64,000 nt of DNA, taken from positions 11,221-75,220 of the forward strand of contig JBAUEL010000110.1 in assembly GCA_049678585.1 (NCBI GenBank), read 5' to 3'. The DNA is from Dehalococcoidia bacterium (lineage in GTDB: Bacteria > Chloroflexota > Dehalococcoidia > DSTF01 > CAZFGZ01). Position 1 is the first letter of the stretch; every line of letters begins with the position of its first letter. The translations under genes and the position numbers were made by a program. The notes below the pieces were generated by a model. It had not been told where the DNA came from. It did not search any database and saw nothing but the letters and a program-made list of their open reading frames with translations. Positions 39,511 through 64,000 of this stretch are shown piece by piece.

Positions 39511-39572
39511 GAGCCGGACCCTAGAGGCGCCTCTTGGCGGAATCCATGAGGGAAATCTCCTCTCTCGTCCTA

Positions 39573-39960
39573 TCACGGCCCACACGCCGGGCCGGCGATG
39601 TCCCCGCTCCGCTCTCCCCCCGCCGTTGGATGCACCACGACCCGCAGGCGCCGCAGCGCGTGGTCGTAAGCCTGCAGATGAACCTGCGCGCACCGTTCCA
39701 CCGAAAACCGGCGCACCGCCCGCCCCCGTCCGGCGCGGCCCATGCGCTCGCGCAGCGCCGGATCACCCAGCATCCGCAGCACGGCTTCCGCCATGGCCTG
39801 CGGGTCCAGCGGCGGCACGACGTATCCAGTGATGCCGTCTTCCACCACCTCTGGCACCGCGCCCACTTCCGTCGCGACGACCGGCAGAAGTCGGCGTGGC
39901 CACAGCCGATGCTCAATGAGCTCAAATACAACAACGACATCGAAGGCGCCGTCATGTCCC
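39573..39960 (-). pseudogene. Remnant of a GT1 glycosyltransferase, C-terminal third only
   Basis: The frame encodes FELIEHRLWPRRLLPVVATEVGAVPEVVEDGITGYVVPPLDPQAMAEAVLRMLGDPALRERM...FSVERCAQVHLQAY. This is a clean GT1 E-X7-E C-terminal region with no N-terminal domain; the space upstream is occupied by an intact GT1 in another frame. Confidence 0.4.
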
Positions 39961-42361: not shown

Positions 42362-43863
42362 GCTGGTGCCTCCGTTCCGTCGGTCCGGCTGGATAGCACA
42401 GATAGCAACGCTACGAATGCGATCGCAAGGGCCAACGCCTGGATCATCTCTACCATTATCGATGGGACTGATGTCTCGACTCGAAGCGCGTGGGCCATGA
42501 CCGCGAAGTAGATCAAGCTACCCGCTACCCCGACGCCTCGCGCCATCAGCCACTCCCAGAACACGCGCAAGAGGAGCGCAAACAGAAACCAGCCAGCAAC
42601 CACGCCAGCAATCCCGAAGTTCATGTAGAGGTCTCCGGTAACGGTGGGACCGATGACGCTCGTCTGCCAATAAGGAGCCTCCGCGTAGTCACGGGTGAAG
42701 TCAGCGTCAAGGGCATTAACGTCCAGTTTGCCCTGCCAGAGCTGTCGGGGCACCAGCGCAGCGGGAACTATCTCCTTATAGAGTCTGCCGTACTGGAAAT
42801 CCCGAAGCCCAGGCGTGAGCTTCACAGCTAGCGCCACGGATTCCACGCTTGTGGTCCTGTTCATGAGCCGCGTAAAGCCGTAGCTCGCATAGTCCAACGG
42901 ACCTATCTCTCGCAGGCGGGCCGGCGTATCGCGCACGGCCTGCCACGCGATGTCCGTGGTAGCTTGGCCACCCCCGGTCAGTCTGTACTGCGCTTCGCGG
43001 TTTGCGTGAATGATCGGCGTGACCACGAAGATGAATGCGGCCACCCCAGCGAGCAACTGCCGCATTGTGACGCGGATGCCCGCTGCCCGTGCCGCCAGCA
43101 ACCACGCCAATGCCACAAGAACCAGGTGAGCCTTGAAGCCGGTGCCAACGGCGAATGCGAGCTCGATAGGGGTCATGAACACCAGCGCTACGATGAGTAG
43201 CCACCGGGAACCTCGAAAGCCGACAGCGAGCGCAGCTAGGTACGCGATGAGGGCAAGGAACGACACGTCCAGGATGATCCCAGGGACCGGGGCGTCCGCA
43301 CGGCCAGCAAAGCTGAGCTTGGTGTAGTTTCCTAGCTGGATCGCCCACCAGCGTGCAACATTGGCGATGACATAGACGGTTACTATGGCAATTGCGCACG
43401 CTGGGCCCACGAATGGCATGGTCCGGGGCGCTGGAAGGCTCCGGGCCAGCTGGAGGGGGAAGAACAAGAAATAGCCGACCATGAACGACACGAGCGCGAG
43501 CAGCGATACTGCCTGCGATAGCGCGAGAGCGTCCTTTACCGGACGGTACACCTGCGCCTCGGCAGCGTCAGGCTCAAACGTGAGATAGAGTCCGCGAGCC
43601 ACGCAGAAGAATCCGAACAGCCCCACAACGATCCAGCCTGGAGTCAGGAACTCCCCACCATGGAGCCGGTAGCAGGCCCATGCGAAGACACTCAGGGTCA
43701 GTCCAAGTCCGGCTGTCCACGCGTAAAGCCCGGTGGTCTCGGGCGGCACCACGTACGCCAGCGCGAGGGCCACCGCGCCTGCGAAGGCTAGAACGCTAGT
43801 CCACAGAATGCTCTCCGATGAGCCCTCCTGCCGCCGCGCTGACCTTGATAACACACTATTCAT
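42358..43863 (-). CDS. Polytopic membrane protein, a candidate Wzy-type polysaccharide polymerase or O-antigen-ligase-like protein
   Basis: 501 aa, about 12 TM helices with a large loop late in the protein. Its position between a Wzx-like flippase and GT1s points to a Wzy role. No diagnostic motif was recognised. Confidence 0.4.
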   Translation of the reverse strand: MNSVLSRSARRQEGSSESILWTSVLAFAGAVALALAYVVPPETTGLYAWTAGLGLTLSVFAWACYRLHGGEFLTPGWIVVGLFGFFCVARGLYLTFEPDAAEAQVYRPVKDALALSQAVSLLALVSFMVGYFLFFPLQLARSLPAPRTMPFVGPACAIAIVTVYVIANVARWWAIQLGNYTKLSFAGRADAPVPGIILDVSFLALIAYLAALAVGFRGSRWLLIVALVFMTPIELAFAVGTGFKAHLVLVALAWLLAARAAGIRVTMRQLLAGVAAFIFVVTPIIHANREAQYRLTGGGQATTDIAWQAVRDTPARLREIGPLDYASYGFTRLMNRTTSVESVALAVKLTPGLRDFQYGRLYKEIVPAALVPRQLWQGKLDVNALDADFTRDYAEAPYWQTSVIGPTVTGDLYMNFGIAGVVAGWFLFALLLRVFWEWLMARGVGVAGSLIYFAVMAHALRVETSVPSIMVEMIQALALAIAFVALLSVLSSRTDGTEAPA

Positions 43864-47672: not shown

Positions 47673-48428
47673 TCATAGTGACTTGACAGCCTCCACATAC
47701 AATGTCTCGTTTGCCCGGCTCGCTGAATCCGGGCACGGTTGTAGGCACGATTGACCAAAACTCATCTGCTGCGTCGCCAGCCCAAAGGCTTCGAGCACCT
47801 TGCTGAGCGTCTCCGCGTCCCAGACCGACAGGTGTCCGTAGCAGTAGACCACCTCGGAAAGAGCAATCAAGCGCGAGAACCTGCCAGGGCGCACCGCCTC
47901 GATGAAGTCCGTACCATGCACGTAGGAATTCAGATAGCGCCCGAAATCCGGCACGGTCACCCGCAATATGCCTCCTGGTCGCAGGACACGCGCGCATTCG
48001 GAAAGCACCTGGATTGCATCGTGGTATGTCAGGTGCTCTATGAGGTGCTCGTGGAAAACCGCGTCGATCGAGCCGTCCGGGAAGGGCAGCCGCTTTCGCA
48101 GGTCTAGTGCCAGATCGATTGGCTGGCGCCCGACGAGGTCCACATTCAGCCAGCCGGGCAGCATCGTGCGGCCGCAACCCAGGTGCAGCCGGTGTTCTTG
48201 CCCGTTTGCCATCCAGCGTTGACTCTTCCACACCATCAGAGGCCGGACTGCCGCTGTTGCCAGCGTCCTCAGACGCCATCTCAATGACGACCCAGCCCGA
48301 GAGTCCGCCAACCAAATCGTCTCGCTGAGTTGCTTCACCGAGCCTTGTTCGCACGGCCGGCATGCTGCGCTCCTTGCTTCGTCAACAGCAAGGGCCACGT
48401 CACGCTGCTGATACGGGCGTCGGCTCAC
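47673..48428 (-). CDS. SAM-dependent methyltransferase (type 11-like)
   Basis: HRLHLGCGRTMLPGWLNVDL ... DAVFHEHLIEHL. The real start is probably MANGQEHRLHLGCG near 48212. The N-terminal extension in the ORF track is unsupported. Confidence 0.6.
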   Translation of the reverse strand: MSRRPYQQRDVALAVDEARSAACRPCEQGSVKQLSETIWLADSRAGSSLRWRLRTLATAAVRPLMVWKSQRWMANGQEHRLHLGCGRTMLPGWLNVDLVGRQPIDLALDLRKRLPFPDGSIDAVFHEHLIEHLTYHDAIQVLSECARVLRPGGILRVTVPDFGRYLNSYVHGTDFIEAVRPGRFSRLIALSEVVYCYGHLSVWDAETLSKVLEAFGLATQQMSFGQSCLQPCPDSASRANETLYVEAVKSL

Positions 48429-50652: not shown

Positions 50653-51933
50653 CTACTGCGAAACCAGGGAAGTCCGCCGCTCCCACGCCCGCAGGTTCCG
50701 CCGCGATGCCGGGTCGAACCGTTCGAAAAACGCACCGTACCGCGGTAGCACCGCGTGACGAGAAAAGTGCTCCTCGACGAAGCGCCGCCCCTCTGAGCCG
50801 AGGTGGGCGGCCAGAGAACGATCCCTACTCAGGGGAAGGATCGCCTGGGCCAATGCCTCGGGGTCCTCAGGTGGGGCCACCACGCCGCCGTTCGACCGCC
50901 GCAGGACCCGGGCGGTCTCGCTGTGTGGGTGGACGGATGCGACCACCGGCCGGCCAGCGGCCATGTAGGATAGGAGCTTGGTCGGCATGACGGCGTCGAC
51001 GATGCCAGCGCGCTGGCAGACTATGCATACGTCCGCCGCTCGCAGCGCCGCCTGGTAGACAGCGAGTGGCTGCGGCGGCAGGAACACGATGTTCTCGAGA
51101 CGGTTACGCTCCGCTTCCGCTCTTACTTCCTGGAACCGTGCCCCATGTCCAATAATGGCGAACGCGATTCGCCTTTCACCCTGCAAGACACTGGCAGCGC
51201 CAACCAGGCTTTCCAGCCCTTGCTTGTACCCGATGTTCCCGGCATGGAGGATCAGGGCAGTGTCCGCAGCTAGTCCAAGGCCCGCTCGGAAGCGATCGCA
51301 CTGCTGTTGCTCTACCTGGAATGTCGTGTCTACCCAGTTGGGGAGTAGCTGGACCTGGGGGGAGTGCCAGCCTCGGCGGTGCAGGTCGTCAGCGAATCCC
51401 TGGCAGATGACGGTTATCGCGTCGGAGCGCTGGTACACATACCGCTCCAGGCTCCGCAATCCGCGGATCAGAGCTGGATTGCGGATCAAATTGACAGCTA
51501 TCGCCGTCTGTGGAATGAGGTCCTGGATGTGCGTGACGAGCGGAGCCGAATACCTCCTGGAAAGCAGGTATCCCGTGAGTCCCAGCGTCAGCGGGGGGGA
51601 CACCGTGAAGACAACATCGGTGTTGGCTGCGCCGACTCCTCTCAAGGCGGAGGTGAGCGTGAATGAGAGGTCGCTCAGCGCGCGCCGAGGAGCGTTGGGA
51701 TGCCTGGGAACGAATATGAATGATCTTCTGACCTTCACACCACCACGGCTTTCGTCCAGGAAGAGCTTCCCCCGGTAGCCAGGCTCAATCTTCCAGGCAG
51801 GATAGTGCGGAAATGAGGTGAGGACTGTGACGTCGTTGCCCGTGGCAACCAGGTATTCACAGAGGTCAGTCGTCAAGGGCCCGATGCCGGTCAGCTCGGG
51901 CCAATAGTTTTGACCTATTACCAGGATTCGCAC
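50653..51933 (-). CDS. Glycosyltransferase family 1 (WcaI/WbuB-like)
   Basis: [28 protein letters not shown] is the typical WcaI-like N-terminus. C-terminal GT1 domain. RBS AAGGAGCG precedes the ATG. Confidence 0.8.
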
Positions 51934-54671: not shown

Positions 54672-55102
54672 GGCGCCGGGTCTATGTGTGGCGGTGGCAG
54701 GAACCGGGGAACGCCGGTGAGGACCGGCTGGTGGGGCTGCTGGTCCGGTTCGGCATCAACGCTGCGGCCCTGCTTCTGGCGGCTGAGTGGGTGCAGGGGG
54801 TAGAGGTCGGGGGCTGGCAGTCACTCCTCATCGCCGCCGCCCTCTTCGGTATCATCAACGCGCTCATTCGTCCCGTCGTGCTCGCTCTGAGCTGTCCCTT
54901 GCTGGTGCTGACGCTGGGGCTATTCACCCTGCTGGTGAACACGGCCATGCTGGCCCTCACTGTCTGGGTGTCCGGCCGCCTGAACCTCGAGTTCGAGGTG
55001 GACGGCTTTCGGGCAGCCTTCCTGGGCGCCCTGCTTATCAGCGCCGTCAGCGTGGTGCTCAGCGCGACGGTGGGTCGGAAGGTGCGGGAGGTCCTCAGGT
55101 AA
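54668..55102 (+). CDS. Phage-holin-4_2-like small membrane protein (4 TM)
   Basis: LVRFGINAAALLLAAEWVQGVEV ... LFGIINALIRPVVLALSCPLLVLTLGLFTLLVNTAMLALTVWV matches the conserved pattern of this family. Confidence 0.55.
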   Translation: MRRRVYVWRWQEPGNAGEDRLVGLLVRFGINAAALLLAAEWVQGVEVGGWQSLLIAAALFGIINALIRPVVLALSCPLLVLTLGLFTLLVNTAMLALTVWVSGRLNLEFEVDGFRAAFLGALLISAVSVVLSATVGRKVREVLR

Positions 55103-55346
55103 CCTTGTAGACGTCGTCCCCGCCCCGACAGCGGTCCGGGACCTTGATGCCTACGGAGTCGCCCGCCTTGGCCTCCTGCACGTCCTCGTGCTCGATCTGC
55201 ATGGACCCCACCACCTGCTCCAAGTCGGTGGTGTGTCCCTTGATGTGGATGGTGTCACCCACCTTGAGGGGAGCCACCAGGTCGATGCCGATGACCCCGA
55301 TGCGGGCGAAGTAGTCCTTTACCTTCCCGACCAGCTCCTCGGCCAT
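55095..55346 (-). CDS. Small EF-Tu-domain-2-like beta-barrel protein (translation elongation factor-like protein)
   Basis: 83 aa with the G-rich beta-barrel pattern IGVIGIDLVAPLKVGDTIHIKG ... KAGDSVGIKV. The assignment is tentative. Confidence 0.3.
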   Translation of the reverse strand: MAEELVGKVKDYFARIGVIGIDLVAPLKVGDTIHIKGHTTDLEQVVGSMQIEHEDVQEAKAGDSVGIKVPDRCRGGDDVYKVT

Positions 55347-55467
55347 AGCGTTGCCCTCCTTGTGCCAGCAGGGGCATGATTTGCGGTCATTCTACCGCTT
55401 CTGAGCGATCCTTGGAAGTAGCAGTCGCTGGGGCCTGTGGGGCGAGCCCGAAAGCGGCGGGCGGACG

Positions 55468-55496
55468 TTGACAGCAGCCATCGGAGGCCCTAAAAT
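55468..55496 (+). promoter_or_regulatory. Sigma70-like promoter (TTGACA-17-TAAAAT) upstream of the HTH regulator and tetrapyrrole operon
   Basis: An exact consensus -35 at 55468-55473 and a near-consensus -10 TAAAAT at 55491-55496 with a 17-nt spacer, in a locally AT-richer stretch. It is followed by the direct repeats TTGCCAGGATT (55517-55527) and TTGCCTAGATT (55536-55546). Confidence 0.4.
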
Positions 55497-55535
55497 TCTC
55501 AGTACAGTAGGCTTATTTGCCAGGATTAGCTAGTT

Positions 55536-56210
55536 TTGCCTAGATTTTCTCGGACCGGTTCTCCTCCCGTCCAGGCTCACGGCTCCTCTGAAGAGGAGCG
55601 CTGGCTGAGCCTGCGGGAGGCCTGTCGCCTGCTGGGGGTGGACGAGTCCACCCTCCGCCGCTGGGCCGACGGCGGTCACCTGCGCACCTTCCGCACCCCC
55701 GGCGGCCACCGGCGTTTCGCAGAATCGGACCTCCGGGACTTCCTGGCGCGGCGGGGCGGAGAGCATCAGGGCCATAAGGATGCCGGGGAGCTGGCGGCGG
55801 CACGCATTCGCCGGCACCTTCAGCGGGGCCGGGAGCACCAGGCAAGCTGGTACGCCAGCCTGGACGAGGAAAGCCGGAGACGGCTGCGACCGTTAGGGCG
55901 GCACCTGACCTCACTGGCGTCGGCATACCTGACCCAGAGGCGGCGTCGGTCGGCGCTGCTGGAGGAGGCCCGCGACACGGGGCGAGTGTACGGGCGGGAG
56001 CTTGCGGCCTCAGGGCTGCGCCTGTCCCAGACGGTGGAGGCGTTTGCCTTCTTCCGGCGGAGCCTGGCGCAGGCGGCCCGCGATGCCAGCCAGTCGAGCG
56101 GACCGTCGCTGGAGGCGGCCCTGGAGGCCTCCGAGCAGGTCACGGGACTGGCCGACGAGGTGCTGGCGGGCATCGCTGAGGCCTACGAGTCCCCGGCCGG
56201 ACAAAACTAG
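55536..56210 (+). CDS. Excisionase/MerR-like helix-turn-helix DNA-binding protein, a putative regulator. The start is uncertain (TTG 55536, or CTG 55605 preceded by GAGGAG).
   Basis: LSLREACRLLGVDESTLRRWADGGHLRTFRTPGGHRRF is a typical N-terminal HTH_17-type domain. It is followed by a roughly 150-aa Arg/Ala-rich helical domain. The stop lies 12 nt before the radical SAM gene. Confidence 0.55.
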   Translation: MPRFSRTGSPPVQAHGSSEEERWLSLREACRLLGVDESTLRRWADGGHLRTFRTPGGHRRFAESDLRDFLARRGGEHQGHKDAGELAAARIRRHLQRGREHQASWYASLDEESRRRLRPLGRHLTSLASAYLTQRRRRSALLEEARDTGRVYGRELAASGLRLSQTVEAFAFFRRSLAQAARDASQSSGPSLEAALEASEQVTGLADEVLAGIAEAYESPAGQN

Positions 56211-56222
56211 GACGGGGCAGAG

Positions 56223-57500
56223 ATGCTAGGGGTCACCAGACTGTTGTGCGGAACGGCCACACCGGGCGACGCCCTGCGCTTCGGAAGGGAGACGGGGCGG
56301 CTGCCTCCGCACCTCTTGCACTACTCCGAGGACAAGAGGCCGGTGGTGGTGTGGAACCTCACCCGCCGCTGCAACCTGCACTGCGCTCACTGCTACAGCG
56401 ACTCCCGGGACCGGGACTACGAGGGCGAGCTGAGCACCGCGGAGGCCAGGGGGGTCATCGATGACCTGGCGGCGTTCGGGGCGCCGGTGATCCTGTTCTC
56501 GGGCGGCGAGCCCCTCCTGCGGCCGGACCTGTTCGAGCTCATCCGCTACGCCCAGGAGCACGGCATCCGGGCGGTCCTCTCGACCAACGGCACCCTCATC
56601 ACCGGGGAGCTGGCCCGGGAGATGCAGGGCCTGGGCCTGTCCTACGTGGGGGTGAGCCTGGACGGGCCGGAGAAGGTCCATGACAAGTTCCGCGGCAAGA
56701 TAGGCGCCTTTCAGGAGAGCCTCCGGGGGATCCGTCACTGCCTGGAGGCGGGCCTGCGGGTGGGCCTGCGCATCACCCTCACTCAGTACAACGCCGGGCA
56801 CGTCGACTACTTCTTCGACCTCGTCGAGGAGGAAGGCATCCCCCGCATGTGCTTCTATCACCTGGCCTACGCGGGCCGGGGAGACCGCATCGTGAAGAGC
56901 GATCTCTCGCACGAGGAGACCCGGCGGGCCGTTGACCGCATCTTCGACCGAACTATCGACCTGCACCGCCGCGGCCTGACCAAGGACATCCTGACGGTGG
57001 ACAACCACACCGACGGCGTCTACCTGCACCTGAAGGTCCGGCAGGAGGAGCCCGAGCGGGCCGGGGAAGTCTACCAGCTCCTGCGCTGGAACGGGGGGAA
57101 CCAGTCGGGGGTGGCGGTAGCGGACATCGACAATCTGGGGAACGTGCACGCGGACCAGTTCTCCTGGCATTACAGTTTCGGGAACGTGCGGCAGCGTCCC
57201 TTCAGCCAGATCTGGATGGACACCTCGGACCCGGTGATGCGGGTGCTGAAGGACCGGCGGGGGCACATCAAGGGGAAGTGCTCGCGCTGCTCCTACTTCG
57301 AGATCTGCAACGGCAATCTCAGGGTGCGCGCCGAGTCCTACTACGGCGACCCCTGGGCGGAGGACCCGGCCTGCTACCTGACCGACGAAGAGCTGGGCAT
57401 CACGGAGCCCTACGAGCGGCTGAGGCCCGCGCACGGGCGGACGGACCCCTTCGCCCCTGCGGCAGCCGCTGGCGGCGACATCCCGAAAACGGTGGAGTAG
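56223..57500 (+). CDS. Radical SAM protein with a C-terminal SPASM/twitch Cys cluster, NirJ/AhbC/AhbD-like (tetrapyrrole-modifying family)
   Basis: WNLTRRCNLHCAHCYSD (CxxxCxxC), then GGEPLLRPD, and a C-terminal GKCSRCSYFEICNG auxiliary cluster. Its context is immediately upstream of sirC-hemA-hemC-cobA/hemD. Confidence 0.75.
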   Translation: MLGVTRLLCGTATPGDALRFGRETGRLPPHLLHYSEDKRPVVVWNLTRRCNLHCAHCYSDSRDRDYEGELSTAEARGVIDDLAAFGAPVILFSGGEPLLRPDLFELIRYAQEHGIRAVLSTNGTLITGELAREMQGLGLSYVGVSLDGPEKVHDKFRGKIGAFQESLRGIRHCLEAGLRVGLRITLTQYNAGHVDYFFDLVEEEGIPRMCFYHLAYAGRGDRIVKSDLSHEETRRAVDRIFDRTIDLHRRGLTKDILTVDNHTDGVYLHLKVRQEEPERAGEVYQLLRWNGGNQSGVAVADIDNLGNVHADQFSWHYSFGNVRQRPFSQIWMDTSDPVMRVLKDRRGHIKGKCSRCSYFEICNGNLRVRAESYYGDPWAEDPACYLTDEELGITEPYERLRPAHGRTDPFAPAAAAGGDIPKTVE

Positions 57501-57508
57501 GAGCAGCG

Positions 57509-58156
57509 GTGGCCTACTATCCCATCTTCCTGGAGCTTGCGGGGCGCCCCTGTCTGGTCATCGGCGGTGGCGAGGTAGCCCAGCGCAAGGCCGAGGGCCT
57601 GCTTCAGGCGGGGGCCTGGGTTCGCGTGATCAGCCCGACCCTGACGCCTGCCCTGGAGGCGCTGAAGGCGGAGGGGCGTCTCGACCACGTGGCCCGGGAG
57701 TACCGGGAGGGGGACCTGGAGGGCTGCGAGCTGTGCCTGGTGGCCACCGACGACAGATCGGTCAACGCCCGGGTGGCTCGGGAGGGCCGGCGCCGCCGGG
57801 TATGGGTCAACATCTCCGATGACCCCCGGAGCTGCGACTTCATCCTGCCTTCGGTCGTTCGGAAGGGCGAGGTAGTGGTGGCGGCATCCACCGGCGGGGC
57901 CAGCCCGGCCCTGGCGCGCCGCCTGCGGGAGGAGCTGGAGGCCTATCTATCGGAGGAGATCCCCGCCCTGGCGGAGCTCCTGCGAGAGGTACGGCAGGAG
58001 TTGCGCAAGGGGGGCATCTCGGTAGAGGCGGATGCCTGGCAACGGGCCATCGATGGGCGGCTGAGGGCGTTGCTGGCACAGGGGCGCTATGGCGAGGCCA
58101 GGACGCGCCTGCTGGCGTCGCTGGGGGTAAAGCCGGCCACCCGGAACGAGGTATAG
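57509..58156 (+). CDS. Precorrin-2 dehydrogenase / sirohydrochlorin ferrochelatase domain protein (siroheme synthase N-domain, SirC/Met8-like)
   Basis: YPIFLELAGRPCLVIGGGEVAQRKAEGLLQAGAWVRVISP is the characteristic N-terminal Rossmann domain of CysG-N/SirC. GTG start at 57509 with GGAG upstream. The ORF track extends to 57278 inside the previous gene. Confidence 0.75.
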   Translation: MAYYPIFLELAGRPCLVIGGGEVAQRKAEGLLQAGAWVRVISPTLTPALEALKAEGRLDHVAREYREGDLEGCELCLVATDDRSVNARVAREGRRRRVWVNISDDPRSCDFILPSVVRKGEVVVAASTGGASPALARRLREELEAYLSEEIPALAELLREVRQELRKGGISVEADAWQRAIDGRLRALLAQGRYGEARTRLLASLGVKPATRNEV

Positions 58157-58160
58157 GGCT

Positions 58161-59423
58161 GTGTACGCCTTGGTGGTAGGCATCAGCTACAAGACCGCCC
58201 CCGTGGAGGTGCGGGAGCGCTTCGCCTTCGGGACGGAGGATCTGCCTAGGGCGCTTCCGCGGCTAGGCCGAGAGTTCGGGGGCGCGGCCATCCTCTCCAC
58301 CTGCAACCGCACGGAGGTGTACGTGACAGCATCGCAGGCCCTGACGGATGCCCGGCCGGTGCTGCGGGTGCTGGCCGAGCTGAAGGGCGCCTGCGGACCT
58401 CGCATCGATGCCTCCTATATGTACAACGGCAGCGAGGCGGCCCGTCACCTCTTTCGGGTGGCAGCGGGGGTCGAGTCAATGGTGCTGGGCGAAGCGGAGA
58501 TCCTGGGTCAGGTGCGGACGGCCTTCGCGGCGGCTATGGCGGCAGGCACCTCCGACCCTTTGCTCTCGCGGCTGTTCCGCTCGGCCATCCGGGTAGGTCG
58601 GAGGGCCCGCAGCCAGACGAACATCAGCCGCCATGCCGTATCGGTCAGTTCCACGGCGGTGTCTTTGGCCCGCCGGACCCTGGGTGACCTGGCCTCCCGC
58701 ACCGTGCTGGTGGTGAGCGCAGGCGAGGCGGGCAAGCTGACCGCGCGCAACCTGGCGGAGCGAGGAGCCTCGCGCATCCTGGTGACCAGCCGGACCTTCG
58801 ACCGGGCTGTACAGCTTGCCGCCGATCTCGGCGGCACCGCCGTGCCCTTCGAGGGCCTGGGGGAGGCGCTGGCCCGGTCGGACATCATCATTACCTCCAC
58901 GGGGGCCCCGAGCTTCCTCATCGGGCCGGAGCTGATGGGGGAAGTGGTGGCCCAGCGCGACGCCCGGCCCCTGCTGCTCATCGACATAGCGGTCCCCAGG
59001 GACGTGGACCCGGCGGTGCGGGAGTTGCCGCACGTGCACCTATACGACATCGATGACCTCCGGGCGGTCTCGGAGGAGAACCTGGAGGCGCGTCAGCGAG
59101 AGGTGGAGAAGGTGGAGGCCCTGGTAGAGGAGGAGATGGTGCGCTTCAGCGAGTGGTGGCGCTCCCGGGGGGTCATCCCCACGGTAGCGGCGCTGCGGGA
59201 GAGGGCCGAGCAGATCCGGCGGGAGGAAGTGGCGCGTACCCTGAGGCGGCTGCCGGACCTCTCGGAGGAGGAGCGGCGGCGGGTGGAGGCCATGGCCTCG
59301 GCCATCGTCAAGAAGCTGCTGCACGCTCCCATCGTCTACCTAAAGTCCTCGGGCGATGCCGAGCGTCATACCTCCGCCCTGCGCGAGCTGTTCGACCTGG
59401 ACCGGCCCGCCACGGAGGAGTGA
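58161..59423 (+). CDS. hemA: Glutamyl-tRNA reductase
   Basis: VVGISYKTAPVEVRERFAF ... ILSTCNRTEVY (catalytic Cys), plus an NADPH-binding domain and a C-terminal dimerisation helix. GTG start. Confidence 0.9.
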   Translation: MYALVVGISYKTAPVEVRERFAFGTEDLPRALPRLGREFGGAAILSTCNRTEVYVTASQALTDARPVLRVLAELKGACGPRIDASYMYNGSEAARHLFRVAAGVESMVLGEAEILGQVRTAFAAAMAAGTSDPLLSRLFRSAIRVGRRARSQTNISRHAVSVSSTAVSLARRTLGDLASRTVLVVSAGEAGKLTARNLAERGASRILVTSRTFDRAVQLAADLGGTAVPFEGLGEALARSDIIITSTGAPSFLIGPELMGEVVAQRDARPLLLIDIAVPRDVDPAVRELPHVHLYDIDDLRAVSEENLEARQREVEKVEALVEEEMVRFSEWWRSRGVIPTVAALRERAEQIRREEVARTLRRLPDLSEEERRRVEAMASAIVKKLLHAPIVYLKSSGDAERHTSALRELFDLDRPATEE

Positions 59424-59424
59424 G

Positions 59425-60351
59425 GTGCGCGATCCGCTGGTAAGGGTCGGCAGCCGGGGCAGTCAGCTAGCCCTGCGCCAGACTGAGCAGGTGGTGGCGG
59501 CGCTGCGGCGCTTCCATCCGGGCGTTGAGTTCCGGGTGTACCCGGTGCGCACAGAGGGCGATCGCCGCGCGCGAGCGCCTCTGTCCCGCATCGGCGGCCA
59601 GGGTGTGTTCGTTCGCGAGCTGGAGGCGCGGCTGGCAACAGGCGAGGTGGACCTGGCGGTGCACAGCCTCAAGGACGTGCCCACGGAGCTGGCTCTGGGC
59701 TTGACCCTGGCGGCCGTTCCCGCGCGGGAGGACCCCGGCGATGCCCTGGTGAGCCGCCGGGGCCTGCGCCTGGCCGAGCTGCCGGCGGGCGCGCGGGTGG
59801 GCACAGGGAGCGCTCGACGGGCCGTGCAGGCGCGGGCCTTGCGGCCGGACCTGGAGTACGTCGATATAAGGGGCAACGTGGACACCCGCCTGCGGCGGGT
59901 GCGCGAAGGCTCAGTAGACGCGGTCATCCTGGCGGCGGCGGGACTGGCCCGCCTGGGCCGGCTGGGGGAGGCGGCGGAGGTGCTGGACGTCGAGACGATG
60001 CTACCCGCGGCCGGGCAGGGCGCCCTGGCGGTGGAGGCGCGGACTGACGACGCCGAGCTCTGCGCCTTGGTCGCCCCGCTGGAAGATCGGGAGACGCGGG
60101 CGGCGGCAGAGGCGGAGCGAGCCTTCCTCCGGCGCCTGGGGGCCGGCTGTCGGCTGCCCGTGGGAGCCCTCGGCGAGGTGGGGGGTCCGACCCTGCGCCT
60201 GCGCGCCCTCATCGCCGACGGGCAGGGAGAGCGCATCCTGCGCGAGGAGCTGACCGGTCGCCCCGAGGAGGCCGAGGCCCTGGGAACTCGCCTGGCCGAG
60301 AGGCTGCTTGCCCTGGGCGCGGACGAGTTCATGGCGGAGTCAGTGCGGTGA
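59425..60351 (+). CDS. hemC: Hydroxymethylbilane synthase (porphobilinogen deaminase)
   Basis: VRVGSRGSQLALRQT ... AVHSLKDVPT ... dipyrromethane cofactor Cys in GAGCRLPVG. GTG start at 59425 with RBS GGAGGAG directly after the hemA stop. Confidence 0.9.
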   Translation: MRDPLVRVGSRGSQLALRQTEQVVAALRRFHPGVEFRVYPVRTEGDRRARAPLSRIGGQGVFVRELEARLATGEVDLAVHSLKDVPTELALGLTLAAVPAREDPGDALVSRRGLRLAELPAGARVGTGSARRAVQARALRPDLEYVDIRGNVDTRLRRVREGSVDAVILAAAGLARLGRLGEAAEVLDVETMLPAAGQGALAVEARTDDAELCALVAPLEDRETRAAAEAERAFLRRLGAGCRLPVGALGEVGGPTLRLRALIADGQGERILREELTGRPEEAEALGTRLAERLLALGADEFMAESVR

Positions 60352-61877
60352 AGGCATCGGGCAAGGTATGGCTGGTGGGGGCGGGCCCGGGTGACCCTGG
60401 GCTCCTCACGCTGGCGGGCGCGGCCTGCCTGGCCCGGGCAGAGGTGGTGTTGTACGACCGCCTGGTACACCCTCGCCTGCTCGACCTCGCCCCTGCCGGG
60501 GCCGAGCGCATCTACGTGGGCAAGCAGGCGGGCGGCCACACCCTCACCCAGGACGAGATCAACGCCCTCCTGGTGGCCAGGGCGTGCGAAGGGAAGCGGG
60601 TCGTGCGGCTGAAGGGCGGCGACCCCTACGTGTTCGGACGCGGGGGCGAGGAGGCCGAGGCGCTGGTCGCTGCGGGCGTCCCCTTCGAGGTGGTGCCGGG
60701 CGTGACCTCGGCGGTGGCCGCGCCGGCCTATGCGGGCATCCCTGTGACCCATCGGGGGCTGGCGTCGTCTGTGGCCGTGGTCACCGGCCACGAGGATGCG
60801 GCCAAGGAGGAGTCAAGCATCGACTGGGCGAGGCTGGCTACCGGCGTGGACACCCTGGTGCTGCTGATGGGCGTGGCCAACCTGCCCGACATCGCCGAGC
60901 AGCTCGTGCGGCACGGCCGGCCCCCCGAGACTCCGGCCGCCGTCATCGAGTGGGGGACGCTACCGCGGCAGCGCACGGTGTCGGGCACGCTCGGGGACAT
61001 CGCCCGGCGGGCCGCCGAGGCGGGCCTGCAGCCGCCCGCGGTGACGGTAGTAGGCGAGGTGGCCGGCCTGCGCGAGACCCTGCGCTGGTTCGACAATCGC
61101 CCTCTCTTCGGGAAGCGGGTGCTGGTGACGCGCACCCGGCGGCAGGCGAGCGCCCTCTCGCAGGCCCTGGCCGAGGCGGGTGCGGAGCCCATCGAGCTGC
61201 CCACCATCGAGATCGAGCCGCGGGCCGACCCCGGCGCGGTGCAGGCAGCCCTCGACGCCCTGCGGGCCGGAGCATACGCCTGGGCCCTCTTCACCAGCGC
61301 CAACGGCGTGGAGCTGTTCTTCGGGCACCTGCGGGAGCGGGGCCTGGACGCTCGCGCCTTCGGCTCGGCTATGGTGGCGGCCATCGGCCCCGGCACCGCC
61401 GAGGCTCTGGCCGGCGAGGGCATTGCGGCGGACCTGGTGCCGGAGGATTTCTTGGCCGAGGGGCTGCTCCGAGCGCTGGCCGAACATGAGATGGCAGACC
61501 GGCGGGTGCTCGTGCCGAGGGCGGAGGGCGCGCGGCGCGAGCTGATCGAGGGGCTGGAGGCCCAAGGCGCCCGGGTGGACGAGCTGACCCTGTACCGCTC
61601 GGCGGTACCGCGCGAGCCGGACGCCGAGGGCCTGCGACGCCTGCGGGCGGGCGAGCTGGACATCGTGACCTTTGCCAGCTCCTCGGCGGTGCGCAACCTC
61701 GCGGAAATGCTAGGCGACAACCCGGAGCCGCTGCGGCGGCCCCTCATCGCCTGCATCGGGCCGGTCACGGCGCAGGCGGCGGAGGAGCTTGGCTTGACCG
61801 TCGGGCTCGTATCGGAGGAGCATACCATCCCGGGGCTGGTGCGTGCGCTGGAGGAGAAGTATCGGTCGGAAGGATAG
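60348..61877 (+). CDS. cobA/hemD: Bifunctional uroporphyrinogen-III C-methyltransferase / uroporphyrinogen-III synthase fusion
   Basis: N-terminal SUMT (VWLVGAGPGDPGLLTL ... VVRLKGGDPYVFGRGGEE ... GVPFEVVPGVTSA). C-terminal HemD-like domain (KRVLVTRTRRQASALSQALAEAGAEPIELPTIEI ...). The GTG start overlaps the hemC stop (GTGA). Confidence 0.85.
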   Translation: MKASGKVWLVGAGPGDPGLLTLAGAACLARAEVVLYDRLVHPRLLDLAPAGAERIYVGKQAGGHTLTQDEINALLVARACEGKRVVRLKGGDPYVFGRGGEEAEALVAAGVPFEVVPGVTSAVAAPAYAGIPVTHRGLASSVAVVTGHEDAAKEESSIDWARLATGVDTLVLLMGVANLPDIAEQLVRHGRPPETPAAVIEWGTLPRQRTVSGTLGDIARRAAEAGLQPPAVTVVGEVAGLRETLRWFDNRPLFGKRVLVTRTRRQASALSQALAEAGAEPIELPTIEIEPRADPGAVQAALDALRAGAYAWALFTSANGVELFFGHLRERGLDARAFGSAMVAAIGPGTAEALAGEGIAADLVPEDFLAEGLLRALAEHEMADRRVLVPRAEGARRELIEGLEAQGARVDELTLYRSAVPREPDAEGLRRLRAGELDIVTFASSSAVRNLAEMLGDNPEPLRRPLIACIGPVTAQAAEELGLTVGLVSEEHTIPGLVRALEEKYRSEG

Positions 61878-61887
61878 GAGGCGGCTG

Positions 61888-62298
61888 ATGGCACCCGAGA
61901 CAACCCTTCGCCTGACCCATGTGCGCCTGCTGGTCAAGGACTTCGCGGCCTGCTTTCGCTTCTACCGCGACGTGCTGGGATTCGAGGTGCTGTGGGGCGA
62001 GGAGAAGGGCCGCTACGCCGACTTCCGCGCCGGCGACGCCATCGTGGCCCTCTACAAGCGCGGTCTGATGGCTGAGGCAGTGGGGGAGGCGGAGAAGCCG
62101 TCGGAGGCCGAGGCGCAGGACCGGGCCGCCCTCATCTTCGCCGTCGAGGACGTGGACGCAACGTACGAGAGCCTGAAGACGAAGGGCGTGACATTCGTTA
62201 CGGAGCCGACGGACCGGCCGGACTGGGGCATCCGCGCGGCCCACTTCCGCGACCCCGACGGCAATCTGCTGGAGATCTACAGGGACCTGGGGGCGTGA
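61888..62298 (+). CDS. VOC-family (glyoxalase/bleomycin-resistance/dioxygenase fold) protein
   Basis: LTHVRLLVKDFAACFRFYRDVLGFEV ... HFRDPDGNLLEIY. RBS GGAGG precedes ATG 61888. Confidence 0.7.
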   Translation: MAPETTLRLTHVRLLVKDFAACFRFYRDVLGFEVLWGEEKGRYADFRAGDAIVALYKRGLMAEAVGEAEKPSEAEAQDRAALIFAVEDVDATYESLKTKGVTFVTEPTDRPDWGIRAAHFRDPDGNLLEIYRDLGA

Positions 62299-62377
62299 GG
62301 GTGAGCTGCAGGCGGGGCATGCCGTGCGGAGCCTGACGAAGGCGCCACGGGAACGGTTTCTAGACAAGGGATAGAAA

Positions 62378-63019
62378 ATGCGGACTAAGACACTACTGCC
62401 TGCAGTTTCGTTCGAGCGACTGTTCAAGACGGGTCACGGGCCTAGAGACAAGTTCCTATCCCGCCTTTTTGGCATATTCGGTGAAGAGATTGTTCGAGTG
62501 TGGTCTCGCTGTAGACAGGCGCCTTATGAAGACATTGGGCGGCCCACAGTCAAACGTCCCGGCGAATCGAGAGGCAAGACTCTAGACTTCACCTTCAAAT
62601 CCCGGACGGATGGCCGGCTCTTCGTCGGTGAGATGAAGTGTGAGCTGGAGTTTGAGAACTATCGCTACCTAAGATTGACCGACCACTGGCAACTGGATCA
62701 CCACAGAACTGATGCCTTCCTGCGGTTCCGTGACCTAGCACGAAATCCTGAGGCCTACAGTGTCACTGTGAATGGGAAGCATGTTTCGCCTGCAGGAGCG
62801 ATCCTGGTTTGGGGCAGCGTTACAAGCGAAGGGCGAAGCGATGTAAAGCAAGCTACCGACGTGGCGGATGTCCTATCAGTGGAGGACATGATTGGTGACC
62901 TGCTCGTGTGGAATTCTGTAGAGTACAAGACATTCATCCAGGCACGGGGCCAGTGGTGTGGGGATTTGTTTGGCATACTTGCGGGACGCGGCCAGCCAAT
63001 TAGAGAGGTTCCATCATGA
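62378..63019 (+). CDS. Hypothetical protein encoded in a low-GC island, with a possible PD-(D/E)xK nuclease-like motif
   Basis: 213-aa ORF with clearly lower GC than its neighbours (about 50% vs about 70% by eye). It uses AGA, AAA, ATA and TTT codons that are rare elsewhere in the window. It has a candidate D...E-x-K motif (TLDFTF ... LFVGEMKCE). Its stop overlaps the hemB ATG. Confidence 0.5.
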
Positions 63020-64000
63020 CCACCAGTACCCTCCCGCTCGTTCTCCGCCGCTTCCGGCGGCTGCGGCGGACGGAGGCGCTGCGCGAGCTCGCCCGCGAGA
63101 CGCGGCTCTCGGCGCAGGACTTCGTCTATCCGCTGTTCGTCAGGCACGGGTCGGGCGTGCGCGAGGAGATCACGTCGATGCCCGGCCAGTATCACCTCTC
63201 GCTGGACCAGCTCGCCGCGGAGGCCGAGGAGCTGCGCTCGCTGGGCATCCCTGCGGTCCTCCTGTTCGGCCTGCCCGCGGCCAAGGACGAGGTGGGCTCG
63301 GAGGCCTACGCCGAGGACGGGATCGTCCAGCGGGCGGTGCGCGCGCTCAAGGACACCGCACCCGACCTGGCCGTCATCACCGACGTCTGCCTCTGCGAGT
63401 ACACCAGCCACGGCCACTGCGGCGTGGTCGTGAACGGCGAGGTGGACAACGACGCCACCCTGGAGCTGCTGACGCGCACGGCCGTCTCCCACGCCCGCGC
63501 CGGCGCCGACATGGTGGCGCCGTCAGACATGATGGACGGTCGGGTGGCCGCCATCCGGCGCGCCCTCGACGAGGGGGGCTTCGCTCAGACGCCCATCCTG
63601 GCCTACGCGGCCAAGTACGCCTCGGCCTTCTACGGCCCCTTCAGGGAGGCCGCGGAGTCGGCGCCCGCCTTCGGGGACCGTCGCGGCTACCAGATGGACC
63701 CGCCCAACGTGCGGGAGGCCCTGCGGGAGATGGAGGCGGACCTCCAGGAAGGGGCGGATATCCTCATGGTAAAGCCCGCCCTGGCCTACCTGGACGTGCT
63801 GGCGCGGGCCAGGCAGCGCTTCGAGGTGCCCCTGGCGGCCTACAACGTGTCGGGGGAGTACGCGATGGTGAAGGCGGCGGCCGCTCAGGGCTGGCTCGAG
63901 GGCCCGCGGGTGGCCCTGGAGATACTCACGGCCATCAAGCGAGCCGGCGCCGATATCATCATCACCTATCACGCGAAGGAGGCGGCCCGCTGGCTGCGCG
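63016..64000 (+). CDS. hemB: Porphobilinogen synthase (delta-aminolevulinate dehydratase), 3'-truncated by the window end
   Basis: N-terminal [29 protein letters not shown]. Zn-binding Cys triad [33 protein letters not shown] active-site region. The frame is open to position 64000. Confidence 0.85.

What the first reader, a model, noticed from the sequence alone, without database searches (positions are those of the whole stretch)
62300..63025. Low-GC foreign ORF, with a PD-(D/E)xK-like motif, inserted into the tetrapyrrole operon directly upstream of hemB
The 62378-63019 ORF has GC near 50% by eye, against roughly 70% in the flanking hemD, VOC and hemB genes. It uses AGA, AAA, ACA, ATA and TTT codons that are nearly absent elsewhere. 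It sits between cobA/hemD-VOC and hemB, and its TGA stop overlaps the hemB ATG (ATGA). The protein (213 aa) has a hydrophobic-D ... hydrophobic-E-x-K arrangement (TLDFTF ... LFVGEMKCE), the hallmark of PD-(D/E)xK restriction-endonuclease-fold nucleases. I recognise no other family. A horizontally acquired, possibly nucleolytic gene welded into a core housekeeping operon is unexpected. It could be an orphan toxin, a defence or addiction module, or a domesticated mobile-element gene.
Basis: seen in the sequence. Interest (0 to 1): 0.65.

Follow-up and report, generated by a model that had tools for sequence, protein, structure and literature searches.

The report
Mobile nuclease-fold gene inside haem operon
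A compositionally foreign gene wedged directly in front of the haem-synthesis gene hemB encodes an unannotated restriction-endonuclease-fold protein; it is swappable cargo, because a near-identical relative carries a candidate phage-defence gene at the same spot.

Summary
ORF 62378-63019 (213 aa) has GC 0.54 and GC3 0.57. The other 46 genes of the window average 0.66 and 0.81 (z = -4.2 and -3.7). Its TGA overlaps the hemB ATG.

No Pfam, NCBIfam, PADLOC or PHROG model matches. The family is small (about 370 clusters), phylogenetically patchy, and has no conserved partner gene.

The gene is not a one-off recent insertion. Six lineages of one Dehalococcoidia clade carry it with the same overlap onto hemB, under purifying selection (dN/dS about 0.2).

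It is not a fixed operon component either. A relative that is 93-97% identical in the flanks has a methyltransferase plus PADLOC defence candidate PDC-S18 in its place. A homolog also sits in a hypervariable cargo slot of a phage structural module.

Best reading: a stand-alone, methylase-independent nuclease carried as accessory, probably defence-type, cargo. It is a new member of a known superfamily, of moderate interest.

The parts
62378..63019 (+). Gene X: 213-aa stand-alone PD-(D/E)xK-fold protein of an unannotated family
62483..62485 (+). Codon for E36, the acidic residue on core helix alpha1
   Evidence: Invariant in A1 and at least 90% conserved in the more divergent A3. Lies in helix 21-44 of the model. 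The role of an alpha1 Glu is described in PMC3424549.
62585..62587 (+). Codon for D70, the 'D' of the PD motif, at the start of core strand beta2
   Evidence: Invariant in both alignments. Immediately precedes strand 71-75.
62630..62638 (+). Codons E85-M86-K87, the (D/E)xK motif on core strand beta3
   Evidence: E85 and K87 are invariant in A1 and at least 90% conserved in A3. They lie within strand 81-87.
62690..62692 (+). Codon for Q105, an invariant residue at the start of the helix after beta3; H108 and H109 are near-invariant
   Evidence: A contribution to the active site or to substrate binding is inferred, not tested.
62366..62371 (+). Shine-Dalgarno-like AAGGGA, 6 nt upstream of the X start codon
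   Evidence: Read from the sequence. No promoter-like or terminator-like site lies in 61700-63200.
63003..63008 (+). Shine-Dalgarno-like GAGAGG for hemB, embedded in the last codons of X
   Evidence: Read from the sequence. The X tail (residues 202-213) has lower model confidence and is an extension specific to the hem-linked alleles.
63016..63019 (+). ATGA: the hemB start codon overlapping the X stop codon (translational coupling inferred)
   Evidence: The same kind of overlap is seen in L004, L070 and L072 (ATGA), L069 (GTGA) and the P0007 contig (1 nt).
61841..63013 (+). Variable cassette (last ~12 codons of hemD, VOC, spacer, X). In the close relative L091 it is replaced by a methyltransferase plus PDC-S18.
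   Evidence: blastn of window against L091: 55001-58136 at 97.4%, 59414-61840 at 93.0%, 63014-63998 at 92.7%, and nothing alignable in between. No flanking repeats.
61888..62298 (+). VOC/glyoxalase-fold gene with host-like composition (GC3 about 0.90); the left part of the cassette
   Evidence: Pfam Glyoxalase, E 1.7e-26. Composition.
60348..61877 (+). cobA-hemD fusion gene, the conserved left flank of the slot
   Evidence: ORF. TP_methylase and HEM4 domains in the equivalent genes of L001, L004 and L091.
63016..64000 (+). hemB (porphobilinogen synthase, runs off the window), the conserved right flank of the slot
   Evidence: ALAD domain in L001. 95% identical to the L091 hemB.

Best explanation
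Gene X encodes a catalytically intact, stand-alone nuclease of the PD-(D/E)xK (restriction-endonuclease-like) fold. It belongs to a small family of about 200-aa proteins that no database annotates.

It is horizontally mobile accessory cargo, not a haem-pathway component. In one Dehalococcoidia clade it occupies the position directly upstream of hemB, inside a hemD-hemB interval that collects and exchanges unrelated genes. Exchange probably runs by homologous recombination in the conserved flanks.

It has no promoter-like site of its own. It would be transcribed by read-through of the hem operon. Its last codons carry the hemB ribosome-binding site, and its stop codon overlaps the hemB start, so hemB translation is coupled to it.

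The most likely activity is Mg2+-dependent cleavage of nucleic acid, using E36, D70, E85 and K87. The most likely role is a solitary, methyltransferase-independent nuclease directed at foreign DNA, in the style of Mrr/type IV restriction or phage exclusion.

Shown here: the gene is real and under purifying selection; the fold and catalytic residues; the patchy distribution; cassette replacement between close relatives; the defence-candidate alternative occupant.

Inferred, not shown: nuclease activity, substrate, the defence role, co-transcription and translational coupling.
For: Composition: GC z = -4.2 and GC3 z = -3.7 among 47 genes.

Family: 174 homologs by single-sequence search, 369 by profile and 329 representatives. 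None is named and none has a Pfam domain.

Active site and fold:
- E36, D70, E85, K87 and Q105 are invariant.
- The AF2 model has pLDDT 93.4. E36 lies on helix 21-44, D70 at the start of strand 71-75, and E85/K87 on strand 81-87. [quoted passage not shown]
- The Foldseek top ranks in the PDB and in BFVD are of the same kind.

Selection: dN/dS is 0.15-0.21.

Mobility:
- 59 loci in about 185,000 species genomes, spread over at least 10 phyla.
- The gene's GC is below that of its flanks, median -0.04 and down to -0.22.
- Neighbours are heterogeneous. They include IS110 transposases, PLD/DrmC-like proteins, REase-ARP, NA-iREase1 and a Dam methyltransferase. In one locus a type I R-M HsdM/HsdS pair lies nearby.

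Slot:
- L091 is 93-97% identical in the flanks, but carries a methyltransferase plus a 305-aa low-GC gene instead of VOC plus X.
- That 305-aa gene matches PADLOC PDC-S18 at E 1e-78. PDC families are phage-defence candidates (bioRxiv 10.1101/2024.01.29.577857).
- The L069 methyltransferase is 71% identical to the one in L091 and is followed by X. X and PDC-S18 are therefore alternative occupants of one position.
- A low-GC DUF4062 gene lies in the same interval in L004.

Independent parallel: a homolog (GC 0.53 in a 0.68 phage) lies co-oriented between head and tail genes of a phage. Related phages have 0-3.8 kb of unrelated cargo there (97 clusters, 3 empty sites).

Operon embedding: no promoter-like or terminator-like site, a 4-nt overlap with hemB, and the hemB SD-like site inside X.
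Against: - No PADLOC model hits X itself.
- Only a handful of about 60 loci have defence-type immediate neighbours, so there is no strong defence-island enrichment.
- Sequence profiles do not reach Mrr_cat or any other Pfam family, even below threshold.
- Foldseek E-values are not significant (best 0.035 in the PDB).
- X lacks the separate DNA-recognition domain that Mrr-type enzymes have.
- The hemD-hemB interval also holds ordinary metabolic genes (VOC, PAC2, AMP-binding, TauE), so occupying it does not by itself imply defence.
- Six lineages keep exactly the same junction with hemB, which would also fit a stably inherited gene with a cellular role.
- Only one viral locus was found among 2.9 million viral contigs.
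- No activity, expression or phenotype data exist.
Confidence: 0.5

Rival explanations
1. X is a selfish, free-standing homing-type endonuclease. It cuts a site in or next to a conserved gene (here the hemD-hemB junction or the 5' end of hemB) in genomes that lack it. It is then copied in by recombinational repair. This would explain its precise anchoring to hemB and its position between conserved phage structural genes.
For: - It is embedded and co-oriented between conserved genes in two unrelated settings.
- It is present or absent among very close relatives.
- It has no partner gene.
- The junction with hemB is identical in all six hem-linked lineages, while the left neighbour varies.
- Composition is foreign.
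Against: - Both slots hold many unrelated cargo genes: 97 clusters in the phage slot, and PDC-S18, a methyltransferase, PAC2 and others in the hem slot. The sites are therefore generic hotspots, not a site specific to X.
- No truly empty hemD-hemB allele was recovered that could serve as a target.
- The roughly 60 family loci share no common flanking gene.
- dN/dS of about 0.2 over saturated synonymous divergence points to long-term maintenance, not the usual gain-decay-loss cycle of homing genes.
Confidence: 0.12
2. X is a cellular housekeeping nuclease (DNA repair, recombination or RNA processing). It was acquired once by an ancestor of this clade and has been kept because it is useful. Its place in the hem operon is incidental.
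For: - Purifying selection.
- The same junction in six lineages.
- In Bacillota its composition matches the host, for example 0.44 against 0.44 in Caldicoprobacter.
- Structural neighbours include the repair enzymes NucS/EndoMS, MGME1 and Hjc.
Against: - The family is very rare and patchy: 59 of about 185,000 species genomes.
- It is absent from a relative whose hemB is 95% identical.
- There are far more hemB relatives at 79% identity or more (over 120 clusters) than hem-linked X clusters (about 6).
- The gene's GC is depressed relative to its flanks in many hosts.
- There is no conserved repair-gene neighbourhood.
Confidence: 0.12
3. X is the toxin of a toxin-antitoxin or addiction module. 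Alternatively, it is retained only because removing it would break hemB expression (addiction by embedding).
For: - The hemB SD-like site and start codon lie inside or overlap X, so a clean deletion would disturb an essential gene.
- Some subclades have a small ORF overlapping the X start: 96-111 aa in L088 and L090 (74% identical to each other), and a zinc-ribbon ORF in Clostridia that is fused to X in P0009.
- CdiA-CT toxins are among the structural neighbours.
Against: - No small partner is conserved across the family, and there is none in the window. The upstream gene is an ordinary VOC with host composition, 79 nt away.
- Retention by embedding alone would not keep the catalytic residues invariant or hold dN/dS at 0.2.
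- L091 shows that the gene can be swapped out without losing hemB.
Confidence: 0.1
4. X is a haem-pathway accessory or regulatory protein of this clade, for example one that tunes hemB expression or binds a tetrapyrrole. The nuclease-like fold would then be a scaffold without nuclease function.
For: Strict adjacency and translational coupling to hemB in six lineages. Rare codons upstream of a coupled gene could throttle hemB (inference).
Against: - Only 6 of about 75 family loci are hem-linked. The rest lie in unrelated contexts in many phyla and in a phage.
- The full catalytic set is invariant.
- A relative with 95% identical hemB has no X.
Confidence: 0.05

Closest known systems
Mrr-type catalytic domain (Pfam Mrr_cat PF04471 / DUF2034 group; structure 1y88, AF1548), i.e. 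type IV modification-dependent restriction enzymes
   Different: No sequence-profile match to Mrr_cat, even below threshold. About 10% identity. No separate N-terminal DNA-recognition domain; instead X has about 75 extra C-terminal residues (strands and three helices) of unknown role. Modification dependence is untested.
Single-gene phage-defence candidates found embedded in other systems (PADLOC PDC families; here PDC-S18)
   Same: PDC-S18 occupies the very position upstream of hemB in a 93-97% identical relative, and is likewise low in GC (0.56). Both are solitary genes embedded co-oriented within a conserved gene set, as described for 'guilt by embedding' (bioRxiv 10.1101/2024.01.29.577857).
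   Different: No detectable sequence relationship (hhalign probability 1%). X matches no PADLOC model. The host 'system' is a biosynthetic operon, not a defence system. PDC-S18 itself is untested.
Stand-alone PD-(D/E)xK defence or effector nucleases (Shedu SduA, Hachiman HamA, AspBHI, Can2/Card1 nuclease domains)
Free-standing homing endonucleases and phage 'morons' inserted between conserved genes
   Same: Promoterless and co-oriented between conserved genes. Present or absent among close relatives. Foreign composition.
   Different: The slots hold many unrelated genes, so nothing ties the site to X's own specificity. No cleavage site or empty target allele has been identified.

Membership tests
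PD-(D/E)xK phosphodiesterase superfamily (restriction endonuclease-like fold) | [quoted passage not shown] | tested here: met
PD-(D/E)xK phosphodiesterase superfamily (restriction endonuclease-like fold) | Asp at the start of beta2 and (D/E)xK on beta3 | tested here: met
   D70, E85 and K87 are invariant in 55 sequences. D70 is invariant, and E85/K87 at least 90% conserved, in 51 more divergent sequences. Their positions on the strands are given.
PD-(D/E)xK phosphodiesterase superfamily (restriction endonuclease-like fold) | Acidic residue on the first core helix contributing to the active site (present in many families) | tested here: met
   E36 is invariant and lies in helix 21-44.
PD-(D/E)xK phosphodiesterase superfamily (restriction endonuclease-like fold) | Divalent-metal-dependent phosphodiester cleavage | not testable with these tools
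   Needs biochemistry.
Mrr / type IV restriction (Mrr_cat PF04471) | Match to the Mrr_cat sequence profile | tested here: not met
   No Pfam hit to Mrr_cat at E up to 10 for X, nor at E up to 1 for any of 51 family members.
Mrr / type IV restriction (Mrr_cat PF04471) | Structural similarity of the catalytic domain | tested here: met
Mrr / type IV restriction (Mrr_cat PF04471) | Separate domain that recognises modified DNA, and modification-dependent cleavage | tested here: inconclusive
   The model has no N-terminal DNA-binding domain. The C-terminal 75 residues are of unknown role. Modification dependence is not testable here.
Type II restriction-modification system | Adjacent cognate DNA methyltransferase | tested here: not met
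   There is none in the window (VOC upstream, hemB downstream). Only one Dam-type methyltransferase was found among 115 nearest neighbours of about 60 loci.
Toxin-antitoxin module | Conserved small partner gene in an operon with the toxin | tested here: not met
   All-against-all clustering of neighbours found no partner shared across loci. Small ORFs are lineage-specific only, in L088/L090 and in Clostridia.
Known or candidate anti-phage systems (PADLOC-DB v2) | Match to a PADLOC protein model | tested here: not met
   Only a JAB model at E 0.027, which is not meaningful.
Defence or accessory cargo of a genomic hotspot | Conserved flanks with alternative, unrelated cargo, including defence genes, in close relatives | tested here: met
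   Window against L091. Other cargo in L004, L069, L072 and the P0007 contig. The phage slot holds 97 cargo clusters.
Free-standing homing endonuclease | Empty-site allele carrying the recognition sequence, cleaved by the enzyme | tested here: inconclusive
   No empty hemD-hemB allele was recovered, since L091 has other cargo. Three empty phage sites exist, but cleavage is not testable.
   Hem-linked in only 6 lineages of one clade. GC3 is 0.57-0.70 against 0.91-0.95 for hemB in those lineages. Absent from a relative with 95% identical hemB.

The most novel reading that the evidence does not exclude
X is a free-standing PD-(D/E)xK homing-type endonuclease, or more broadly a selfish nuclease. 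It propagates through bacterial chromosomes and phages by anchoring itself, through stop/start overlap and supply of the ribosome-binding site, to an essential downstream gene (hemB). Its loss is then penalised, and its spread rides on recombination in the conserved flanks. This would make the hemD-hemB interval of these Dehalococcoidia a natural case of 'addiction by operon embedding'.
Probability: 0.1. Interest if true: 0.75.

Novelty: new member of a known kind. Interest (0 to 1): 0.5.

Why it matters
The result defines a previously unannotated, compact (about 200 aa) family of the restriction-endonuclease fold, with a confident model and a clear catalytic set. This is a concrete candidate for a new solitary defence or exclusion nuclease.

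It also shows that, in an uncultured Dehalococcoidia clade, a core haem-biosynthesis operon acts as a sink for exchangeable cargo. That cargo includes defence candidates and is wired translationally into an essential gene.

If the defence role is confirmed, searches for immune genes should include variable slots inside housekeeping operons, not only classical defence islands. The enzyme itself might be a useful small nuclease.

If it is not confirmed, the case remains an ordinary example of horizontally acquired cargo.

Tried and rejected
Sequence-family searches:
- Pfam, NCBIfam, PADLOC and PHROGs on X, and a PDB sequence search with both X and the family profile, found nothing meaningful.
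- A sub-threshold Pfam scan of 51 family members found no consistent family.
- Longer family members have no informative extra domains, apart from a weak zinc ribbon in P0009.
- A profile search of 5.8 billion proteins reached no annotated relatives.

Structure:
- The afdb50 fold library was unavailable.

Relationship between slot occupants: hhalign of the family profile against the L091 305-aa protein and the L072 178-aa ORF showed no relationship. Calling the L072 ORF nuclease-like rests on a motif alone.

Neighbourhood and local signals:
- Clustering of neighbouring ORFs produced only overlapping or antisense artefacts, plus an ADP-ribosylglycohydrolase in Caldicoprobacter-like genomes.
- No promoter-like or terminator-like site, no Rfam family, and no flanking direct or inverted repeats or att-like sites around the cassette. 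A site-specific mobile element was therefore rejected.

Phylogeny:
- The first tree attempt timed out.
- The NJ tree groups the six hem-linked alleles within a 12-leaf clade. Three of the six other members were checked and are not hem-linked (P0016, P0020, P0074); the other three (P0015, P0029, P0032) were not checked. The exact bipartition had 0/40 bootstrap support. A single capture cannot be proved from the tree; synteny is the stronger argument.

Other:
- PDB sequence searches of the L088 and L090 neighbours were uninformative.
- Literature searches for PDC-S18, DUF5655 and AF1548 gave nothing functional.
Full report
1. THE OBSERVATION

The ORF at 62378-63019 (+) is real: ATG to TGA, 213 aa.

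Its GC is 0.539. The flanking genes are hemA 0.696, hemC 0.745, cobA-hemD 0.735, VOC 0.681 and hemB 0.716. Its GC3 is 0.57, against 0.86-0.95 in the hem genes. It contains the lowest-GC 642-nt stretch of the whole 64-kb window.

Against 46 other plausible genes of the window it is the extreme outlier: GC z = -4.2, GC3 z = -3.7, and the lowest codon-adaptation score. Amino-acid content explains only part of this. Expected GC under host codon usage is 0.627; observed is 0.540.

ATGA at 63016-63019 is shared by the stop of X and the start of hemB.

2. WHAT THE PROTEIN IS

No Pfam, NCBIfam, PADLOC or PHROG model recognises X, and neither does any PDB sequence. The same holds for the family profile and for 51 diverse members scanned below threshold.

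X nonetheless belongs to a genuine family. There are 174 homologs by single-sequence search, 369 by profile search among 5.8 billion proteins, and 329 among 1.84 billion representatives. All are about 195-215 aa, and all are 'hypothetical'.

In a 55-sequence alignment, E36, D70, E85, K87 and Q105 are invariant, along with R29, R40, W42, P56 and others. D70 stays invariant, and E36, E85 and K87 stay at least 90% conserved, when members down to 29% identity are added.

An AlphaFold2 model built on this alignment is confident (pLDDT 93.4, pTM 0.88). It places E36 on the first long helix (21-44), D70 at the start of strand 71-75, and E85-x-K87 on strand 81-87, followed by a helix. [quoted passage not shown]

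Foldseek finds nothing significant in the PDB or in viral models, but ranks the same kinds of protein first.

The family is far from any solved or annotated member.

3. WHERE THE FAMILY OCCURS

The window matches a Dehalococcoidia MAG.

A scan of one genome per species (about 185,000) found only 59 loci. They are spread over Chloroflexota, Bacillota, Acidimicrobiia, Alpha-, Beta- and Gammaproteobacteria, Planctomycetota, Acidobacteriota, Zixibacteria and others.

The gene's GC tracks the host (r = 0.76) but is usually lower than its 3-kb flanks. The median difference is -0.04, and it reaches -0.22. In Caldicoprobacter-like Clostridia it equals the host (0.44).

Clustering of neighbouring ORFs found no partner gene shared across loci. 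A pooled Pfam and PADLOC scan of 115 nearest neighbours shows a heterogeneous mix:
- ADP-ribosylglycohydrolase (4, all related Clostridia)
- PLD/DrmC-like (3)
- IS110 transposases (2)
- REase-ARP (2)
- NA-iREase1 (2)
- HTH_3 (2)
- one Dam methyltransferase

One relative follows a type I R-M HsdM/HsdS pair. This is the profile of a solitary, horizontally mobile accessory gene. It is not the profile of an R-M or toxin-antitoxin pair.

4. THE hem CONTEXT

X is not a one-off insertion. The same arrangement, with X directly upstream of hemB and stop and start overlapping, is seen in these lineages:
- The window.
- L069: X 79% identical, a GTGA overlap. The contig ends 7 nt after the X stop, so hemB is inferred only from 'GTGACCACCGA'.
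- L070: 69%, with hemD directly followed by X and then hemB.
- L072: 52%, VOC, a 178-aa ORF, then X and hemB.
- The P0007 contig: 57%.
- L004: 51%.

The left neighbour differs each time: VOC, a methyltransferase, hemD itself, or PAC2 preceded by AMP-binding, TauE or DUF4062 genes.

X is under purifying selection. dN/dS is 0.21, 0.19 and 0.15 for the three closest pairs. It evolves about three times faster than hemB; between the window lineage and L004, dN is 0.44 for X and 0.15 for hemB.

Hem linkage is confined to this clade. None of the other 55+ genome loci or 15 metagenome loci has hemB nearby. The three non-hem relatives checked in the same NJ clade lie in unrelated contexts.

5. THE DECISIVE COMPARISON

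The closest hemB in the databases (95% aa identity) lies on contig L091.

At the DNA level the window and L091 align as follows:
- 55001-58136: 97.4% identical
- 59414-61840: 93.0% identical
- 63014-63998: 92.7% identical

Window 61841-63013 (the hemD tail, VOC and X) has no counterpart in L091. There L091 carries a UbiE-like SAM methyltransferase and a 305-aa gene of GC 0.56 and GC3 0.67, ending 18 nt before hemB.

That 305-aa protein is a full-length match to PADLOC's PDC-S18 (E 9.7e-79). PDC-S18 is one of 145 untested 'phage defence candidates' predicted from their embedding in BREX, DISARM and type I R-M loci (bioRxiv 10.1101/2024.01.29.577857).

The L069 methyltransferase is 71% identical to the L091 one and is followed by X. 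X and PDC-S18 are therefore alternative occupants of the same position.

Homology with L091 fades inside the last ~12 codons of hemD and resumes at the hemB start. No repeats or att-like sites flank the cassette. Exchange through the conserved flanks is the simplest mechanism; this is an inference.

Far more hemB relatives exist at 79% identity or more (over 120 clusters) than hem-linked X clusters (about 6). X is thus probably a minority allele. This estimate is rough, because most contigs are short.

6. AN INDEPENDENT PARALLEL

The only family member found among 2.9 million viral contigs (L092, 41% identity) lies co-oriented inside a phage structural module. The order is S49 prohead protease, major capsid protein, DUF6441, X, a 139-aa gene, then the tail tube. 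Its GC is 0.53 in a phage of 0.68.

In 70 related phage contigs the DUF6441-p139 interval varies from 0 to about 3,800 nt. It holds about 97 unrelated ORF clusters, and three sites are empty.

X is again exchangeable cargo of a hypervariable slot within a conserved operon.

7. HOW IT MOST LIKELY WORKS

Shown:
- An intact PD-(D/E)xK catalytic set on a confidently predicted nuclease fold.
- Purifying selection.
- Mobility.
- Absence of a methyltransferase or other partner.
- Occupation of a slot that carries a defence candidate in a near-identical genome.

Inferred:
- X is a metal-dependent endonuclease that needs no cognate modification enzyme, like Mrr-type (type IV) or exclusion nucleases.
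- It is transcribed by read-through of the hem operon. No promoter-like or terminator-like site was found.
- hemB translation is coupled to it. GAGAGG at 63003-63008 lies inside X, and ATGA overlaps the two genes. The C-terminal tail of X that carries the hemB ribosome-binding site is specific to the hem-linked alleles and has lower model confidence.

I put about 0.85 on the statement 'real, functional PD-(D/E)xK-fold gene that is mobile cargo of a variable slot'. I put about 0.4 on the defence role specifically, and 0.5 on the combined statement.

8. RIVALS

- A homing-type selfish endonuclease (0.12) fits the embedding and the fixed junction. Both slots, however, are generic hotspots, and no target allele was found.
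- A housekeeping repair nuclease (0.12) fits the purifying selection. It does not fit the rarity, the patchiness, or the absence from the closest relative.
- A toxin or addiction gene (0.10) lacks a conserved partner.
- A haem-related role (0.05) is contradicted by the roughly 70 non-hem loci.

9. UNEXPLAINED

All hem-linked alleles keep GC3 at 0.57-0.70, next to hemB at 0.91-0.95. Yet synonymous sites between the more distant alleles are saturated, and the junction is identical. Possible causes are:
- slow amelioration from a low-GC (Bacillota-like) donor;
- selection for rare codons, which would throttle a nuclease or the coupled hemB;
- circulation of the cassette among hosts of lower GC.

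I could not discriminate between them.

10. VERDICT

The finding is real and the structural guess was right. The evolutionary picture needs revision. X is not a lone foreign gene welded into a housekeeping operon. It is one of several interchangeable cargo genes of a variable slot in that operon.

X founds an unannotated family within a well-known superfamily, so it is a new member of a known kind. Interest is moderate (0.5). It is a good candidate for a new compact solitary defence nuclease and an unusual location for such cargo, but there are no functional data.

Noticed in passing
window 58137-59413 (hemA, 58161-59423) vs L091 3862-3867: The glutamyl-tRNA reductase gene hemA is missing from the otherwise 93-97% identical operon of the close relative L091. 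There the sirohaem-synthase-like gene is followed directly by hemC. Identity to L091 is 97.4% to the left of hemA but about 93% to the right, which suggests mosaic recombination.
   Followed up: partly
L091 7065-7982: A 305-aa low-GC gene (GC 0.56) sits 18 nt upstream of hemB. It is a full-length match to PADLOC candidate PDC-S18 (E 1e-78), with a C-terminal DUF5655 and an N-terminal 'IDTLAF...VLIEYK' motif that looks like D...ExK. It is an untested defence candidate sitting inside a haem operon.
   Followed up: partly
L072 840-1376: A 178-aa ORF lies between VOC and X, with a 'CDFRIVVNGRPLWLEAK' (D...EAK) motif. It has no Pfam, PADLOC or NCBIfam hit and no profile similarity to X. It may be a second nuclease-like cargo gene in the same slot, but this rests on the motif only.
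   Followed up: partly
L004 4331-5374: A DUF4062 gene (E 8e-20) with depressed GC (0.57; GC3 0.74) lies in the same hemD-hemB interval of another clade member, alongside AMP-binding and PAC2 genes of normal composition. The hemB-hemL interval there also holds inserted genes (Iron_traffic, RibD_C, HAD).
   Followed up: no
L088 5040-5375 and L090 2799-3089: A conserved small ORF (111 and 96 aa, 74% identical to each other; weak OB_RNB hit) overlaps the start of the X homolog by 4 nt in one subclade. In L088 the pair follows type I R-M HsdM/HsdS and a metallophosphatase. It may be a lineage-specific partner.
   Followed up: partly
L006 8001-8783, L008 7275-7475 and 7468-8067: In Caldicoprobacter-like Clostridia a CxxC...CxxC zinc-ribbon segment is either fused to the N-terminus of X (P0009, 260 aa) or encoded as a separate 66-aa ORF overlapping it. 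A 322-aa gene with a weak NA-iREase1 hit is present next to X in L006 and absent in L008.
   Followed up: no
L092 5950-6632 and L093-L172: The interval between the DUF6441 gene and the next conserved structural gene of a large group of high-GC phages or prophages is hypervariable: 0-3.8 kb, about 97 ORF clusters, 3 empty sites. The commonest cargo is a 224-aa protein found in 6 loci.
   Followed up: partly
window 62348-62380 vs L070 30-58: The sequence just upstream of X in the window (AAGGGATAGAAAATG) resembles the hemD stop region that directly precedes X in L070 (GAAGGATAGGAAATG). It may be a relic of an ancestral hemD-X junction, or simply a similar ribosome-binding site.
   Followed up: no
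window 37732-39693, 42358-43863, 47673-48428, 50653-51933 (all - strand): These genes have mildly lower GC (0.61-0.63; GC3 0.71-0.73) than the window mean. They are far less extreme than X and were not annotated.
   Followed up: no
window 59356-59423: As listed mechanically, the hemC ORF overlaps the end of hemA by 68 nt. The true hemC start is probably further downstream.
   Followed up: no
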